DNA of 64,000 nt from contig JBHLLP010000004.1 in NCBI GenBank assembly GCA_048885525.1, positions 1 through 64,000 on the forward strand, read 5' to 3'. Position numbers and translations under genes: made by a program. Every line of letters begins with the position of its first letter. Position 1 is the stretch's first letter. The notes below the pieces were generated by a model that saw only the letters and a list, made by a program, of their open reading frames with translations, was not told where the DNA came from and did no database searches. This document shows, piece by piece, positions 35,099 through 63,024 of the stretch. The stretch is from Candidatus Hermodarchaeota archaeon (GTDB taxonomy: Archaea > Asgardarchaeota > Lokiarchaeia > Sigyniarchaeales > SOKP01).

Positions 35099-36106
35099 TT
35101 GGATTTAATGATTGAAAAGATACTTCAAGAGATTGACATTTTATTAAACAATGCTAATTACGAGACGTTAGCATTGGGTAATTTTGCAGTTAAGAAAAGT
35201 AAATTCTGTTTTGATCTTTTAGCTAAAAAAGATGATTTTGTATTTAGTGTAAAGGTTTTTCCAAATATTGATAATTTAAATCTTGAAGTTATTCGTGATA
35301 TTAAATCCTTATCAACAATTCTCAAATCAAAACCTTTACTAATTGGAATTAGGAATAGATATCAGAAGTTAGAAGATAATACAATTTATATAAGAGAAGA
35401 CTTACCATTTATTACACTTAATACACTTGAGAATATACTTAATAATAAATATCCGCACATCTTAGCAAGAAGAGGAGGTGGGGTAATATTTCTGGATGGA
35501 AATTTAATGAAAACGCTAAGAGAAGAACAAACTATAACTAGAAAAGAACTTTCTGAAAAAATAGGCGTAACCAAAAGAACTTTGTGTGCATATGAAAATG
35601 AATCTATGCGCCCTTCTGAGAAAATTGCTGAAAAAATATTAGAGACATTAGAAAATAAGGATCTTTTCAAGAAAATCAATATATTTGCATGGCCAATTAA
35701 AACTGATATCGAAAATAACGAGGAATTTGAAGAAAAGGAATTAAGCCAATTTGAGACTCATGTACAGGATATCATTAATAGTATCGGGCTTTCTTCTTAT
35801 TGGTATAAAAAAGGTTCTATCCCTTTCAAATTGTCTTTATATTCTACTTCAGATAAGAAAGAGTCAGAAGGATTTTATCCTCTCTTTTCTGGTATATCAG
35901 AAGAACAAGGAAAACTGAATGAAATGGATTTTAAGTGTTTAAAAAGATTCACAAATTTATTCCACAAAACCTCATTATTTATAATAAATAACGATATAAG
36001 AATTCCTGAAATATTTAAAAAAGATAAAATTCCTATTGTTAAAATTAAAAATTTAGAAAAAGTAGATGATGAAGAAGAGTTCATTGAACTCATCCATGAA
36101 TCCTAA
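35099..36106 (+). CDS. archaeal HTH transcriptional regulator (COG1395-like)
   Basis: CFDLLAKK, KVFPNIDN, ARRGG, central XRE HTH LSEKIGVTKRTLCAYE. Confidence 0.85.
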   Translation: MDLMIEKILQEIDILLNNANYETLALGNFAVKKSKFCFDLLAKKDDFVFSVKVFPNIDNLNLEVIRDIKSLSTILKSKPLLIGIRNRYQKLEDNTIYIREDLPFITLNTLENILNNKYPHILARRGGGVIFLDGNLMKTLREEQTITRKELSEKIGVTKRTLCAYENESMRPSEKIAEKILETLENKDLFKKINIFAWPIKTDIENNEEFEEKELSQFETHVQDIINSIGLSSYWYKKGSIPFKLSLYSTSDKKESEGFYPLFSGISEEQGKLNEMDFKCLKRFTNLFHKTSLFIINNDIRIPEIFKKDKIPIVKIKNLEKVDDEEEFIELIHES

Positions 36107-36812
36107 GGATAAAATAGATTTAATTTGTGGGATAGACGAGGCTGGTAGAATTTAATTCATTTCGAATTTCATGTTAAAAGGCTCTGTCTTAGGCCCTATG
36201 GTTTTATGCGGCATTTGCTTTATTGAATCAAATCTAAGTATTCTTTCTAGAATTGGGGTTAAAGATTCAAAAAAGTTATCACCGCAGAAGAGACGACAAT
36301 TCTCTGAGATTTTGAAAAAAAGTTGTCATTCCCATAAGATAGTTGAAATTAGTGCTCAAGAAATTGATGAGAGAGTAAACAATAAAATTACTATGAATCG
36401 GCTTGAGGAGTTAAAGATGGCTGAACTTATTAACGATTTAAGACCTGATATTATATATATAGATGCTGCTGATGTTAATGAAGAAAGATTTGGAATCTCT
36501 ATTAAGCGTTTATTGAATTATAAGCCAAAAGAAGTTATTTCTAAACATAAAGCGGATGATCTTTTTCCTATAGTTTCAGCAAGTTCTATTGTGGCTAAAG
36601 ATAAAAGAGATACACTAATTAACGAAATTCATAGCAAATATGGAAATTTTGGATCAGGATATCCTTCTGACATGAGAACTATCAAATTTCTAAGAGATTA
36701 TATAAATAAATATAAAAAACCACCAAAATTCGCAAGAAAATCATGGGATACAACCAAAAAAATTATAGAACAAGAACTATCTACAAAAAAAATAACTAAT
36801 TTTCTTAACTAA
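36096..36812 (+). CDS. rnhB: ribonuclease HII, join(36096..36148,36179..36812), 228 aa after removal of a 30-nt insert
   Basis: Exon 1 MNPKDKIDLICGIDEAGR + exon 2 GSVLGPMV..GVKDSKKL..IDAAD..HKAD..VSASSIVAK..GSGYPSD; C-terminal PIP-like KKITNFL. Confidence 0.9.
36149..36178 (+). other. putative BHB-type mRNA intron in rnhB
   Basis: AATTTAATTCATTTCGAATTTCATGTTAAA; contains in-frame TAA (36153-36155); removal restores DEAGRG; BHB fold at the junctions. Confidence 0.8.
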
Positions 36813-37503
36813 ATACTTTTTTTACTACTAATATTATATGATTGGCAGCATACTTATGAATATTTACTCTCTCTATAATATTGTATCCCGCTTTTTCAAG
36901 AATTGTTTTCTCTTTTTCATAAATATACTCAGATTTTTGAAGACTGTCAATTGATTGAGATTTAATTGCAATAATAAGTATACCATTATTCTTTAAGTAA
37001 TATGCACAATTCGATAAGGCGATTTCAGCTTGATTTGGCTGCGCTACATCTTGATAAATCAAATCTATTTCTGTAAAAATATATTTAGCATATTCCTCTG
37101 GAAATCGGGCATCTCCTAATATGGGAATAATATTTGTTCTTTCTGACGTATTTTGAATTAGTTGTCTCATACTTCTTTCTGCAAATTCTACCCCATAAAT
37201 GATTCCAGAATCTATAATATCTGATAAGTGAGAGATAGAAGTACCAGAAGATGCTCCTAAATATAGACATTTTAAATCTTCTGCTAAAAAATTAGTTATA
37301 GGGTTTTTTAAAATTAAAGCTGCTAATTTACTTCTAAATGGATCCCATTCTCTATACTCCAACCCCTTATAATTAATTAGTCTTTCACCATATATATTTT
37401 TTCCAATAACTGCATTCTTAGTATATAATTTTAATTTTTCTTGATAACCAGAAATAAACACATTGGAAAACTTCGGATGGTCTCTAATTTCTATTTTAGA
37501 CAT
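36805..37503 (-). CDS. flpA: fibrillarin-like rRNA/tRNA 2'-O-methyltransferase
   Basis: EYREWDPFRSKLAA, LYLGASSGTSISHLSD, NIIPILGDA, YQDVAQPNQAEI. Confidence 0.96.
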   Translation of the reverse strand: MSKIEIRDHPKFSNVFISGYQEKLKLYTKNAVIGKNIYGERLINYKGLEYREWDPFRSKLAALILKNPITNFLAEDLKCLYLGASSGTSISHLSDIIDSGIIYGVEFAERSMRQLIQNTSERTNIIPILGDARFPEEYAKYIFTEIDLIYQDVAQPNQAEIALSNCAYYLKNNGILIIAIKSQSIDSLQKSEYIYEKEKTILEKAGYNIIERVNIHKYAANHIILVVKKVFS

Positions 37504-37533
37504 CTTATAATTTTCTCTTTATCTTCTTTTTTT

Positions 37534-38727
37534 TTATGACATTCTTTTTTTACTCTTTCCTGATGTTGCCTTTTTAGGTGGACTAGGATACTTCTCTTCA
37601 ATTTCTTTTATTTTATCTTCGATATCTTTTTTTAATTTATCACCTATAAATTCTCCCTTAAAATTGTCCACCTTAGCAGCAACTCCAATTTTTCCTGCCA
37701 CAACTCTAGCTATCTTCCCTCTTGTCCATGGTGTTGCCGATCTAATCTGATTCCATTGAAAGATTAATCCATGTTTAGGTCTTTTTTCACCCGTCTTTAG
37801 AAAACGATATAATGCTTTTTCAGCACCTAATAATTGAATTCTAGAAGCAGGCATATAAGCTAATTTCTGTAAAGAACCCGCCTTTGCTATTAATTTAGCA
37901 CCTATCAATGGACCGATAAGATTATTAATATTTGGAGCAGCTCTTTCCATTAAATCTTCTAAATGATTTTCTAATTGTTGTCGATATTCATCTAAGGAAA
38001 TTATTTGGTGGGCATAATTTTGGATTATTGAAAGATCAAAATTAGCACCCATCGACTCTGAAGCGTACTTTTCCAACATCTTAATTTTACTTTCATTTAT
38101 AACTAAATTTGTTTTTAGATTTTCGAGAGTAAAATTCTCTCTCGAACCTAATATTGAGATTAATCTTGCTAAAGTTATGTTATCTTCAACAATTTTATCA
38201 GTCAACTCTGGGAAATGCAAACCATACCATTCTCTAAGGTGACTTGAAAATAAACTAATAGATTTCTTTATTACATCTAATACAGTAATAACCTGAGTAA
38301 TTATGTTATCTGTATGACCACTTGCTTTACTTATTTCTCTTCTTGTTAATTCGTCACTTACTCTCTTATATTGATTTAGAATTTCTTCTCTGGTTTTTTT
38401 TATTCCAATTCTTTTTAAATTATCTTCTAAATTTAAACGAAAATTTTTAATTTCTATGGAATTTCTCTGAAAAAATGTTTTATATCCCAACTTTTCTGAA
38501 GTTAGCGCTTCTAATTTTTTATTATCAAATAAGAATTCATTAAAACCAGAATTTTCTAATTGTAATAAAAAATTCTCAAATACTTTTTGAATAACATTAT
38601 TTGATAACGCATCATAAAATTCAAGAATTTTTTTGTAATCATCATCAAAATCAATGAAATTTAAGATGTTTCCAGTCTCATCAAATGCAAATATTCCAAT
38701 TAAAGTATCTGCTATGTAAGATTTCAT
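37534..38727 (-). CDS. nop5: C/D box sRNP protein Nop5 (Nop56/58)
   Basis: LREWYGLHFPEL, APN, PASRIQLLGAEKAL, PKHGLIFQ, RGKIAR. Confidence 0.96.
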   Translation of the reverse strand: MKSYIADTLIGIFAFDETGNILNFIDFDDDYKKILEFYDALSNNVIQKVFENFLLQLENSGFNEFLFDNKKLEALTSEKLGYKTFFQRNSIEIKNFRLNLEDNLKRIGIKKTREEILNQYKRVSDELTRREISKASGHTDNIITQVITVLDVIKKSISLFSSHLREWYGLHFPELTDKIVEDNITLARLISILGSRENFTLENLKTNLVINESKIKMLEKYASESMGANFDLSIIQNYAHQIISLDEYRQQLENHLEDLMERAAPNINNLIGPLIGAKLIAKAGSLQKLAYMPASRIQLLGAEKALYRFLKTGEKRPKHGLIFQWNQIRSATPWTRGKIARVVAGKIGVAAKVDNFKGEFIGDKLKKDIEDKIKEIEEKYPSPPKKATSGKSKKRMS

Positions 38728-53000: not shown

Positions 53001-53129
53001 TCGAAAATGAAAAATTGAAATATCTCCTTTTCTTTTATTTTTTTACTTCCTATAATAAAATATTAAAATTTTAAATTGTTATATTGAATTGGTAATTTTT
53101 ATAAACAACATTAAAATTTACTTTTATAT

Positions 53130-53212
53130 GCTCAGGTCGCTTAGCCTGGTAGAGCGCCGGTCTGCTAAACCGGTGTCCAATGGATTCGTGGGTTCAAATC
53201 CCACCCTGAGCG
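53130..53212 (+). tRNA. tRNA-Ser(GCT), intronless
   Basis: GCTCAGG/CCTGAGC acceptor, CCGGT-CTGCTAA-ACCGG, long variable arm, GTGGG-TTCAAAT-CCCAC. Confidence 0.95.
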
Positions 53213-53219
53213 TAGATGT

Positions 53220-62157: not shown

Positions 62158-63024
62158 TTGATTACAAAAATGGTCATAGATAATCCTTTGATTATGATGA
62201 GAGAAATTGGATATAGATATCCAAATGGAACTAAGGCTTTAAAAAATATAAATTTAAATATCTTTAGAGGAGAGCTAATTGGAATAATGGGAAAAAATGG
62301 AGCTGGTAAAACAAGTCTCATTCGAACCTTAAATGGCTTAATTAGGCCAATACAAGGTAATATTTATATTAAAAACGAAAATATTAATTCTAAAAGTATA
62401 GCAACTTTATCTAAAATAGTAGGAATTATTTTTCAAAATCCGTTCCATCAACTTTTTGCAAATTCAGTTGAAGAAGAAATCAACTTTTCTTTAAGAAGCT
62501 TAAATCTAAATAAAGAAGAAATTCAAAAAAAAATTGATCAAATCCTCCATGAATTTGATCTTGAGAAGTATAGAAAGCGATCTCCTCTCAACTTATCTGG
62601 AGGAGAGTCTAAAAAGCTTGCAATTGCTTCAATAATTTGTAGAGATCCTGAAATTCTGATTTTCGATGAACCCACATTAGGTCAAGATGCGAAAGAAATT
62701 GAATTTTTTATTAACTTAATTAATAATGAAAGAAAAAAAGATAAAACTATAATCATAATTACTCATAATATTGAATTTGCTTATGAATACATACCTCGGA
62801 CAATTCTAATGACGGAAGGTCACATTATTGCAGATGGACCGACAAAAGAAGTATTGAATAACAGTCTTTTAATAGAAAAAACATCACTAATTTTACCTCA
62901 AATTTGTCAATTCAATTTAGCATTACAACAGTTAAACTTGCAGTTAGATAATAAAATTTCTTCAAAGAATGATATGATCGATTATCTAAGGAATCTAATA
63001 AAAAATAAATCTTTAAAAATTTAA
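62158..63024 (+). CDS. ECF transporter ATPase A'
   Basis: GKNGAGKT, FQNP.HQLF, LSGGE, FDEPT.GQD, ITH. Confidence 0.93.
   Translation: MITKMVIDNPLIMMREIGYRYPNGTKALKNINLNIFRGELIGIMGKNGAGKTSLIRTLNGLIRPIQGNIYIKNENINSKSIATLSKIVGIIFQNPFHQLFANSVEEEINFSLRSLNLNKEEIQKKIDQILHEFDLEKYRKRSPLNLSGGESKKLAIASIICRDPEILIFDEPTLGQDAKEIEFFINLINNERKKDKTIIIITHNIEFAYEYIPRTILMTEGHIIADGPTKEVLNNSLLIEKTSLILPQICQFNLALQQLNLQLDNKISSKNDMIDYLRNLIKNKSLKI

What the first reader, a model, noticed from the sequence alone, without database searches (positions are those of the whole stretch)
36096..36195. Candidate bulge-helix-bulge mRNA intron inside the RNase HII active-site motif
Seen in sequence: reading from ATG 36096 gives MNPKDKIDLICGIDEAGR-I*FISNFMLK-GSVLGPMV. 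Exactly 30 nt with an in-frame TAA interrupt the invariant DEAGRG motif, and the rest of rnhB is intact. The junctions fold as a BHB: central helix UGGU(36143-46)/GUUA(36173-76) with 1 WC + 3 G-U pairs; 3-nt bulges AG^A and AA^A; outer exon-exon helix AGAC-GAG-gC / Gg-CUC-u-GUCU; inner stem AU..AAUUC/GAAUU..AU closing an AUUUC loop. Cutting after the second nucleotide of each bulge removes 36149..36178 and restores ...GGT AGA GGC.... Established: the archaeal tRNA splicing endonuclease cuts BHB motifs at that position, and the crenarchaeal cbf5 intron is the known precedent for an archaeal mRNA intron. Inference: this is an endonuclease/ligase-spliced protein-gene intron in an Asgard-type archaeon. 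Without splicing, only a 19-aa peptide or a catalytically dead protein from ATG 36171 is made, so splicing could gate RNase HII. I know of no report of this for rnhB, but cannot search.
Basis: partly seen in the sequence, partly recalled or inferred. Interest (0 to 1): 0.95.

Follow-up and report, generated by a model that had tools for sequence, protein, structure and literature searches.

The report
tRNA-type mini-intron splits Asgard RNase HII gene
The only RNase HII gene of this Asgard (Promethearchaeota) archaeon is broken inside its catalytic motif by a 30-base insert shaped like an archaeal tRNA intron, and comparison of 77 related copies shows it must be cut out of the messenger RNA, which published work documents for only one other archaeal protein gene (cbf5).

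Summary
The gene rnhB reads DEAGR, then 30 nt with an in-frame TAA (36149-36178), then G-SVLGPMV. It is the only RNase HII gene in a 99%-complete genome.

The insert is not an artefact or decay. It sits at the same site in 77 distinct sequences from eight genera of one Promethearchaeia family. Lengths are 28, 29, 30 or 31 nt, and every copy has a stop. Close relatives lack it exactly.

Both exons are under purifying selection. Exon-2 dN/dS is 0.13, against 0.12 for intronless genes. All variation in the exon-1 motif is synonymous.

The bulge-helix-bulge (BHB) fold is supported by covariation: 88% of cells pair, against 25-45% in slid controls, and pair 46:73 occurs as UG, CG, GC and UA. Three genomes restore the Arg codon only if both bulges are cut after their second nucleotide.

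The genome encodes a catalytic and a His-less EndA paralogue, and RtcB.

No RNA run was listed, so splicing is inferred, not seen. The fold is not the thermodynamic optimum, and the 3' bulge could be 3 or 4 nt.

This scan noted same-site rnhB introns earlier on other DNA. I re-found them in Hadarchaeota, DPANN and Methanosarcinales. No paper I could search reports them.

The parts
36066..36148 (+). rnhB exon 1. It ends with the first two bases (AG) of the Arg codon of DEAGR. The conserved start is ATG 36066/36069; ATG 36096 is window-specific.
   Evidence: Across 77 sequences the GIDEAGR codons vary only at third positions, and only synonymously apart from I/L/V and one R to K change.
36149..36178 (+). 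30-nt BHB intron with an in-frame TAA at 36153-36155.
   Evidence: The same site is occupied in 77 distinct sequences, with lengths of 28-31 nt. Covariance model R1 scores this copy at 63 bits, and it is single-copy in the genome.
36179..36812 (+). rnhB exon 2. A36179 completes the Arg codon, then G-SVLGPMV... runs to the stop at 36810-12.
   Evidence: PF01351 positions 8-199. TIGR00729 scores 190 bits against a cut-off of 123. It aligns to residues 12-213 of PDB 1io2. dN/dS is 0.13.
36143..36146 (+). Central 4-bp helix, 5' strand (UGGU, exon 1).
   Evidence: Pairs 43:76, 44:75, 45:74 and 46:73 are 93.5% paired in 77 sequences. Pairs 43:76 and 46:73 show compensatory changes.
36173..36176 (+). 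Central 4-bp helix, 3' strand (GUUA, intron).
36147..36149 (+). 5' bulge AGA. The predicted cut lies between 36148 and 36149.
   Evidence: In L086, L093 and L097 the third bulge base is U and is removed.
36177..36179 (+). 3' bulge AAA. The predicted cut lies between 36178 and 36179.
   Evidence: The bulge is always 3 nt in the canonical drawing. A 4-nt alternative that includes G36180 is not excluded.
36150..36172 (+). Inner intron hairpin. It has up to 9 bp in relatives. Here it has 2 bp, a 2x2 internal loop and 5 bp, closed by the loop AUUUC.
   Evidence: All 9 pairs show changes on both sides across the 77 sequences.
36134..36142 (+). Outer exon-exon helix, 5' strand (codons for D-E-A).
   Evidence: Synonymous sites are constrained in intron-bearing alleles: GAG in 76/77 against 16/25 in intronless alleles.
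36180..36189 (+). Outer exon-exon helix, 3' strand (codons for G-S-V).
   Evidence: Positions 83 and 85 are always pyrimidines in intron-bearing alleles. CCA occurs in 0/77 of them against 11/25 intronless alleles.

Best explanation
The 30 nt at 36149-36178 are a bulge-helix-bulge (BHB) intron in the rnhB pre-mRNA. In the transcript, the codons for D-E-A pair with the codons for G-S-V to form the outer helix. UGGU of exon 1 pairs with GUUA near the 3' end of the intron to form the 4-bp central helix. The rest of the intron forms a hairpin. This leaves two 3-nt bulges on opposite strands. The heteromeric splicing endonuclease (a catalytic EndA on contig C2 and a His-less EndA paralogue on C9) cuts after the second nucleotide of each bulge. 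RtcB (C56) then joins the exons, giving ...GGU AGA GGC..., and probably circularises the intron. Only the spliced mRNA encodes an RNase HII with the full catalytic set: Asp and Glu come from exon 1, and two Asp come from exon 2.

What is shown: the insert; its conservation; the covariation of the fold; selection on both exons; precise intronless alleles; and the presence of the enzymes. What is inferred: the cleavage and ligation themselves.

The intron was most simply gained once in the ancestor of this Promethearchaeia family and lost precisely several times. I see no evidence for a regulatory role. It may be a neutral passenger tolerated because the D-E-A/G-P-V codons are naturally complementary.
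For: - The gene is the only RNase HII gene in a 99.3%-complete genome.
- An insert sits at the identical site in all 23 same-genus genomes with a hit. In total there are 77 distinct sequences from genera g1, g13, g15, g16, g17, g21, g22 and g23.
- Lengths are 30 nt (73 sequences), 29 (2), 28 (1) and 31 (1). All have an in-frame stop within 9 codons, and the stops are TAA, TAG or TGA.
- Intronless alleles read exactly DEAGR|G in sister lineages and in six sampled outgroup loci of three other families of the order.
- Structure count on 77 sequences: 87.9% of cells pair, against 25-45% when partners are slid. There are 87 double-change cells, against 21.9 +/- 3.7 in shuffles.
- Pair 46:73 occurs as UG 40, CG 13, GC 13, UA 10 and unpaired 1. 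Pair 43:76 occurs as UA 56, UG 5, AU 4, CG 3 and GU 1. All 9 inner pairs covary.
- In L086, L093 and L097 the sequence is AG|U...AA|A GGN. The Arg codon is restored only by cutting after the second nucleotide of each bulge.
- Exon-2 dN/dS is 0.131 in intron-bearing genes and 0.121 in intronless genes.
- Exon-1 motif variation is confined to third codon positions.
- Synonymous sites inside the predicted exon helices are constrained only in intron-bearing alleles.
- There are two EndA paralogues. One has the Tyr/His/Lys residues and best matches the A. pernix entry 3p1z_B. The other lacks the His. RtcB is also present.
- Two other genes of the same genome carry the same kind of insert, and removing it restores DKHSTGGVPGNK and HSHP-x6-S-x2-D.
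- Same-site inserts occur in rnhB of Hadarchaeota, Woesearchaeota, Micrarchaeota, Nanohalarchaeota and Methanosarcinales.
Against: - There is no RNA evidence. No spliced junction, circular intron or cleavage product has been seen.
- The canonical BHB is not the thermodynamic optimum. ViennaRNA gives it as the minimum-free-energy fold in 1 of 77 sequences. The BHB-constrained fold is on average 6.6 kcal/mol above the minimum.
- In the window itself the central helix has one Watson-Crick pair and three G-U pairs, and the fold z-score is only -1.18.
- The helix next to the 3' bulge is irregular. Either C42-G80 is followed by a G.G mismatch or bulged G81, or the register shifts and the bulge becomes 4 nt. 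The exon bases there are invariant, so covariation cannot decide.
- 8 of 77 sequences lack pair 43:76, and 11 lack pair 44:75.
- The sequences are related, so the shuffle statistics overstate significance.
Confidence: 0.87

Rival explanations
1. Translational bypass (hopping) as in T4 gene 60. The ribosome takes off at the Arg codon, skips the roughly 30-nt hairpin and lands before GGC, so no RNA splicing is needed.
For: A hairpin follows the last sense codon and a stop lies close behind it. Bypass tolerates gap lengths that are not multiples of three.
Against: Bypass needs matching take-off and landing codons. They match in only 1 of 77 sequences; AGA against AAA is the most common combination, and ATA, ACA, GTA and others also occur. 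In L086, L093 and L097 the codon before the gap would be AGU (Ser), not Arg. The first stop lies from 1 to 9 codons after the take-off codon. Bypass does not explain covariation of the central helix with exon bases, or the exon-exon helix constraints.
Confidence: 0.03
2. The gene is inactivated or split. The insert is a fixed disruptive insertion, such as a small palindromic element. Either no RNase HII is made, or an N-truncated protein is made from an internal start, possibly complemented by a 29-aa N-terminal peptide.
For: ATG 36171 inside the insert opens a 213-aa frame in the window. Gene callers would annotate this truncated ORF.
Against: Exon 1 lies outside any other gene from 36107 onward, yet it keeps GIDEAGR with only synonymous third-position changes in 77 sequences. 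Exon-2 dN/dS equals that of intronless genes. Many genomes have no start codon between the last stop and exon 2, for example L003, L004/L005 (with TGA), L020, L023-25 and L045. A truncated protein would lack the Asp and Glu of DEAGRG. The insert is single-copy in the genome, so it is not a repeat family. There have been at least 7 independent precise losses or gains at exactly the same phosphodiester bonds.
Confidence: 0.04
3. The insert is removed from the RNA by the endonuclease, but through a relaxed, non-canonical motif rather than the strict hBHBh' drawn by the first reader. That motif has a 3-bp central helix or a 4-nt 3' bulge with a shifted outer helix. This is a variant of the main explanation, not a different process.
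For: RNAalifold and ViennaRNA prefer the shifted register U43-G80, C42-G81, G41-N82, G40-Y83. Positions 83 and 85 are always pyrimidines. Published work says only heteromeric (alpha-beta)2 and epsilon2 EndAs cut relaxed motifs (PMC5829648).
Against: Pair 43:76 covaries: A43 goes with U76 in 4 of 5 sequences, and C43 with G76 in 3 of 7. This favours the 4-bp central helix. A hybrid drawing keeps both features: C42-G80, bulged G81, then the shifted helix.
Confidence: 0.05
4. The insert is an assembly or sequencing artefact.
For: None was found. The window comes from a draft genome of 87 contigs.
Against: The insert is present in 77 distinct sequences from independently assembled genomes, including single-contig genomes G006 and G023. 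Its divergence tracks the gene tree.
Confidence: 0.01

Closest known systems
BHB intron of the cbf5 (pseudouridine synthase) pre-mRNA in Crenarchaeota (Watanabe 2002; Yoshinari 2006; Yokobori 2009, PMC2738675)
   Same: Both are short introns inside an archaeal protein-coding sequence bounded by a bulge-helix-bulge motif. Both hosts have a hetero-oligomeric EndA. Both show patchy presence and absence with precise loss among relatives.
   Different: The gene differs (rnhB, inside the DEAGRG catalytic motif) and so does the phylum (Promethearchaeota/Asgard, mesophilic and AT-rich). The central helix here is weak and rich in G-U pairs, and the outer helix is irregular. Splicing of cbf5 was shown experimentally; here it is inferred.
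Archaeal pre-tRNA and pre-rRNA BHB introns cut by EndA and joined by RtcB (Marck & Grosjean 2003; PMC5829648; PMC7714728)
   Same: The geometry is the same: a 4-bp helix, two 3-nt bulges on opposite strands, and a cut after the second bulge nucleotide. The same enzymes are presumably used. This genome is also rich in tRNA introns: 21 of the 34 tRNAs ARAGORN called have one.
   Different: The exon context is an mRNA reading frame, so exon bases of the motif are also constrained by codons. The product is a protein-coding message.
BHB-type inserts in other protein genes of Asgard archaea, and same-site rnhB inserts in other archaeal phyla, noted earlier by this scan (unpublished AI notes)
   Same: Architecture and size are the same (about 28-47 nt). 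For rnhB the DEAGR|G site is the same. I re-found rnhB examples in Hadarchaeota, Woesearchaeota, Micrarchaeota, Nanohalarchaeota and Methanosarcinales. I also re-found two other genes in this genome.
   Different: The intron sequences are unrelated beyond the shared architecture. Model R1, built on this family's intron, matched nothing in 125 genomes of 26 other Asgard families. The homing-endonuclease-like neighbour reported for other lineages has no counterpart that tracks the intron here.

Membership tests
Archaeal BHB (splicing-endonuclease) intron | [quoted passage not shown] | tested here: met
   The geometry is present in the window. The central helix is 93.5% paired with compensatory changes in 77 sequences. 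Caveat: the 3' bulge can also be drawn with 4 nt.
Archaeal BHB (splicing-endonuclease) intron | Flanking helices h (exon-exon) and h' (intron) | tested here: met
   In the inner helix, all 9 pairs covary. The outer helix is 85-92% paired depending on register and is interrupted by a mismatch or bulge. Exon synonymous sites are constrained.
Archaeal BHB (splicing-endonuclease) intron | Cutting after the second nucleotide of each bulge yields the functional product | tested here: met
   This rule restores DEAGRG in all 77 sequences, whatever their length (28-31 nt). In L086, L093 and L097 it is the only rule that restores Arg.
Archaeal BHB (splicing-endonuclease) intron | Host encodes EndA and an RtcB-type ligase | tested here: met
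   Two PF01974 genes and one PF01139 gene are present. One EndA has the catalytic His and the other does not.
Archaeal BHB (splicing-endonuclease) intron | Excision observed in RNA (spliced junction, circular intron) or in vitro | not testable with these tools
   No RNA run was available for this sequence.
cbf5 pre-mRNA intron family | Located in the cbf5/dyskerin homologue of Crenarchaeota | tested here: not met
   The host gene is RNase HII (PF01351, TIGR00729) in Promethearchaeota. It works like the cbf5 intron but is not a member of that family.
RNase HII (PF01351 / TIGR00729) | Full-length match including the N-terminal DEAGRG and the later Asp residues | tested here: met
   The profile matches positions 1-199 across the locus with one internal TAA. 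Exon 2 aligns to residues 12-213 of 1io2, including the DAADV and KHKADD stretches. Exon 1 supplies GIDEAGR. The assignment of catalytic residues rests on my knowledge of T. kodakarensis RNase HII.
T4 gene 60-type translational bypass | Identical take-off and landing codons flanking the gap | tested here: not met
   They are identical in 1 of 77 sequences.
Repeated mobile element (MITE-like palindrome) | Multiple related copies in the genome | tested here: not met
   Model R1 finds only the rnhB copy in the own genome: 63 bits, with the next hit at 16 bits and E of 0.46. The AATTC-N-GAATT core has 169 scattered matches whose flanks do not resemble the insert (no chance expectation was computed).

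The most novel reading that the evidence does not exclude
The rnhB intron may be one visible member of a routine system. In these Asgard archaea, and for rnhB in several other archaeal phyla, the tRNA splicing endonuclease and RtcB would process many protein-coding messages. If so, enzyme-catalysed mRNA splicing is common in the closest prokaryotic relatives of eukaryotes. The DEAGR|G site would then be either an ancient intron position or a recurrent proto-splice site, created because the D-E-A and G-P-V codons are complementary.
Probability: 0.55. Interest if true: 0.9.

Novelty: new member of a known kind. Interest (0 to 1): 0.8.

Why it matters
Reviews and primary papers up to 2025 still cite only the cbf5 intron as an archaeal pre-mRNA spliced by the tRNA endonuclease. 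Here an intron interrupts the catalytic motif of the genome's only RNase HII gene in an Asgard lineage. It has been maintained through the divergence of at least eight genera.

Three consequences follow. Gene callers will systematically mis-annotate such genes as N-truncated or as pseudogenes. EndA in these organisms has mRNA substrates, so endonuclease activity becomes a requirement for making RNase HII. Intron gain and loss in protein genes can be studied in the prokaryotes nearest to eukaryotes.

The 77-sequence data set also gives a ready test bed for the substrate rules of heteromeric EndA. It contains natural compensatory variants, and variants with mismatches in the central helix.

Tried and rejected
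- RNA evidence. The look-up of sequencing runs (kind rna, window 35100-38700) listed no RNA holder. This says nothing for or against expression.
- Genome-wide scan. My own scan of G000 looked for BHB geometry plus restoration of a reading frame. It did not discriminate: 42 clusters against 35-39 with slid decoy partners. My strict filter even missed the rnhB intron itself. I therefore make no genome-wide count. I only checked two earlier leads by eye.
- Single-sequence folding. It gave no significant signal.
- Sibling copies. Model R1 found none in the own genome. The weak hits at C3:40439 and C4:60523 are non-coding noise.
- Link to the upstream gene. I asked whether the upstream gene, which overlaps the rnhB start, is a homing-endonuclease-like partner tied to the intron. 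It is a PRK04140-type archaeal regulator, and it is present next to rnhB in intron-bearing and intronless loci alike. I rejected the link for this lineage.
- Phylum-wide Pfam search. Its listing was truncated, with 232 matches not shown. I replaced it with the R1 search and a DNA pattern scan. The pattern scan also returned many chance bacterial matches and two false archaeal ones (L213, L222).
- Other readings. Read-through or recoding of the stop, translational bypass, a split protein and an assembly artefact were considered and rejected. See the rival explanations.
Full report
**Observation.** From ATG 36096 the frame reads MNPKDKIDLICGIDEAGR, then ATT TAA. After 30 nt it resumes with GGC TCT GTC (G-S-V-L-G-P-M-V). 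Removing 36149-36178, or equally 36150-36179, gives AGA GGC and hence DEAGRG.

Exon 2 matches Pfam RNase_HII positions 8-199 and TIGR00729 above its cut-off. It aligns to residues 12-213 of T. kodakarensis RNase HII, 1io2. The Pfam profile spans 36126-36755 with one TAA inside, and this is the only RNase HII match in a genome of 3.58 Mb that is 99.3% complete. The window has about 29% G+C. The neighbours are a PRK04140-type regulator upstream and fibrillarin and Nop56/58 on the other strand. Near relatives are labelled Promethearchaeota or Promethearchaeia.

**It is neither an artefact nor decay.** All 23 same-genus genomes with a hit carry an insert at the identical site. Six loci from other families of the order read DEAGRGP without interruption. 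A class-wide profile search covered 161 genomes in 7 families. It found interrupted genes only in family f1, in genera g1, g13, g15, g16, g17, g21, g22 and g23. Exact intronless alleles occur in g12, g14, g18, g19 and g20, in part of g17, g21, g22 and g23, and in one g1 genome.

After fetching the junctions I had 77 distinct intron-bearing sequences. Lengths are 30 nt (73 sequences), 29 nt (L007, L098), 28 nt (L096) and 31 nt (L097). Every one has an in-frame stop within 9 codons if read through, and the stops are TAA, TAG or TGA. The non-triplet lengths and the mixed stop codons exclude read-through or recoding of the insert.

**Both exons are under selection.**
- Exon-2 pairwise dN/dS has a median of 0.131 in 23 intron-bearing genes of the genus. 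In 28 intronless genes of the family it is 0.121.
- Exon 1 lies outside the upstream gene from 36107 onward. It keeps GIDEAGR in all 77 sequences. Variation is confined to third codon positions, apart from I/L/V at the second residue and one R to K change.
- A start codon is available everywhere. The conserved one is ATG ATG at window 36066/36069, overlapping the end of the upstream gene. L020 and L025 have a stop in between and only TTG or GTG close to the motif.
- Several genomes have no start codon between the last stop of the insert and exon 2. This argues against a separately translated C-terminal protein.

**RNA structure.**
- 87.9% of cells form standard pairs, against 25-45% when the 3' partners are slid by 1-3 columns.
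- There are 87 double-change cells, against 21.9 +/- 3.7 in shuffles.
- The central helix is 93.5% paired.
- Pair 46:73 occurs as UG 40, CG 13, GC 13, UA 10, with one non-pair.
- Pair 43:76 occurs as UA 56, UG 5, AU 4, CG 3, GU 1, with 8 non-pairs.
- Pairs 45:74 and 44:75 switch between G-U and G-C.
- All nine inner-helix pairs show changes on both sides.

The sequences are related, so the shuffle counts are not probabilities. The slid controls keep relatedness and are still far lower.

The most telling single observation comes from L086, L093 and L097. Exon 1 ends in AG followed by U, and the intron ends in AA followed by A GGN. The Arg codon is rebuilt only if both bulges are cut after their second nucleotide, which is the known BHB rule.

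**Exon constraints.** Intron-bearing and intronless alleles differ at synonymous sites that lie in the predicted helices.

| Site | Intron-bearing | Intronless |
|---|---|---|
| Glu codon GAG | 76/77 | 16/25 |
| Gly codon ending at position 46, GGA | 0/77 | 11/25 |
| Ala codon GCT | 62/77 | 8/25 |
| Codon after Gly ending in A | 1/77 (one TCA; CCA 0/77) | CCA 11/25 |

So positions 83 and 85 are almost always pyrimidines that can pair with G40 and G38. Asp GAC and Val GUC are complementary, as are Glu GAG and CUC/CCC. The conserved motif therefore supplies an exon-exon helix by itself. That is my inference for why this site can host a BHB intron.

**Weak points of the structure.**
- In the window the central helix has one Watson-Crick pair and three G-U pairs, and the single-sequence fold is not significant (z = -1.18).
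- ViennaRNA returns the canonical BHB as the minimum-free-energy fold in 1 of 77 sequences. The BHB-constrained fold lies on average 6.6 kcal/mol higher.
- RNAalifold and the minimum-free-energy folds prefer an outer helix shifted by one base (U43-G80, C42-G81, G41-N82, G40-Y83).
It would make the 3' bulge 4 nt long.
- A hybrid drawing satisfies both the covariation of 43:76 and the pyrimidine constraints: C42-G80 closes a 3-nt bulge, G81 is bulged, and the shifted helix follows.
- The exon bases concerned are invariant, so this cannot be settled by comparison.

**Enzymes.** The genome has two EndA genes and one RtcB gene. The 198-aa EndA keeps the Tyr, His and Lys positions and best matches 3p1z_B, which I recall as the catalytic subunit of the A. 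pernix heterotetramer. The 205-aa paralogue has KDSA where M. jannaschii EndA has KEHS, so it lacks the catalytic His. This suggests the heteromeric (alpha-beta)2 type, which published work links to relaxed motifs (PMC5829648). ARAGORN calls only 34 tRNAs in this nearly complete genome, 21 of them with introns. This fits the intron-rich tRNA genes reported for Asgard archaea (bioRxiv 10.64898/2026.10.13.758758).

**History.** I built a maximum-likelihood tree of 95 exon-2 proteins, with outgroups from families f2 and f3. I left out L022 because it contains Ns, and L078, L171 and L172 because my motif search missed them. On this tree intron presence needs at least 14 changes, of which at least 7 are forced by well-supported branches. 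Shuffled labels need about 31.

Several supported sister pairs differ only in having the intron, for example L139 against L051/L052/L055, and L150 against L173. The introns of g1, g21 and g22 are plainly homologous in sequence. One gain in the family ancestor followed by repeated precise loss is therefore the simplest reading. Transfer between lineages is not excluded.

Model R1, built on this intron, matched 14 of 25 family genomes. It matched none of 125 genomes from 26 other Asgard families. It found a single copy in the own genome.

**Context.** Earlier notes of this scan reported BHB inserts in other genes of this genome and rnhB inserts at the same site in other phyla.

An AMP-phosphorylase-like gene (C6, about 109,029) has a 30-nt insert whose removal restores DKHSTGGVPGNK. 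Its central helix is UAGC/GUUA, its bulges are ACA and AAA, and it has a 9-bp hairpin. A JAMM gene (C7, about 62,560) has a 31-nt insert whose removal restores HSHP-x6-S-x2-D.

A DNA pattern scan of species genomes found rnhB interrupted at DEAG-R|G in other lineages:
- Hadarchaeota: 26, 28 and 32 nt.
- A Hodarchaeaceae MAG: 29 nt.
- Methanosarcinales: 31 nt.
- Nanohalarchaeota: 30 nt.
- Woesearchaeota: 31 and 38 nt.
- Micrarchaeota: 43 nt.

The neighbouring-endonuclease idea from those notes does not apply here. The upstream gene is a conserved regulator present with or without the intron.

**Literature.** Searches for BHB, mRNA or protein-coding introns in Asgard, Lokiarchaeota and archaea returned the cbf5 papers and work on tRNA and rRNA. 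Nothing concerned rnhB. Papers from 2018 and 2025 cite only the three cbf5 studies for archaeal pre-mRNA BHB introns.

**Verdict.** It is not demonstrated at the RNA level. The suggestion that splicing gates RNase HII has no evidence for or against it. I classify it as a new member of a known kind: it has the architecture and presumed mechanism of the cbf5 intron, in a new gene and a new phylum.

Noticed in passing
G000 contig C6, about 109,029-109,100 (+), outside the window: An AMP-phosphorylase-like gene is interrupted in DKHST|GGVPGNK by a 30-nt insert with an in-frame stop. It has BHB geometry: central helix UAGC/GUUA, bulges ACA and AAA, and a 9-bp hairpin. It shares the 3' end GUUAAAAGG and a UUUC-G loop closure with the rnhB intron.
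   Followed up: partly
G000 contig C7, about 62,545-62,600 (+), outside the window: A JAMM metalloprotease gene is interrupted by a 31-nt insert. Removing it, with cuts after the second bulge nucleotide, restores HSHPGFKVMMSHID, the JAMM motif.
   Followed up: partly
window 36066-36106: The conserved rnhB start (ATG ATG) overlaps the last 41 nt of the upstream PRK04140-type regulator gene (35099-36106) in another frame. In two relatives (L020, L025) a stop separates this start from the motif, and only TTG or GTG lies near it.
   Followed up: partly
whole genome G000: ARAGORN finds only 34 tRNA genes in a 99%-complete genome, 21 of them with predicted introns and some implausibly long (782-871 nt). 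Only one tRNA lies in the 64-kb window (53129-53213). Many tRNA genes are probably missed because they are heavily interrupted.
   Followed up: no
L191, L199, L201, L205, L206, L243, L250, L258, L259, L270: rnhB of Hadarchaeota, a Hodarchaeaceae MAG, an unclassified archaeon, Methanosarcinales, Nanohalarchaeota, Woesearchaeota and Micrarchaeota carries inserts of 26-43 nt at the same DEAG-R|G position. Most have G+C-rich central helices, for example GGGU/GCCC.
   Followed up: partly
G159 contig C79:3796-3830 (+) and G067 contig C1:63076-63104 (-): There are second, weaker matches to the rnhB-intron model R1 (about 25 bits, E about 5e-4) away from rnhB in two relatives. They may be related introns in other genes.
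   Followed up: no
L141-L144 (g16), L151, L153-L155 (g23): Exon 2 of these genera is about 5 codons longer (215-216 aa) than in the window's genus. This explains the 645-nt profile matches and is unrelated to the intron.
   Followed up: no
L194 compared with L024: A record titled Candidatus Hodarchaeota (DZ1B.338) carries an intron identical to that of a genome placed in the window's own genus. Public phylum labels for these MAGs are therefore inconsistent.
   Followed up: no
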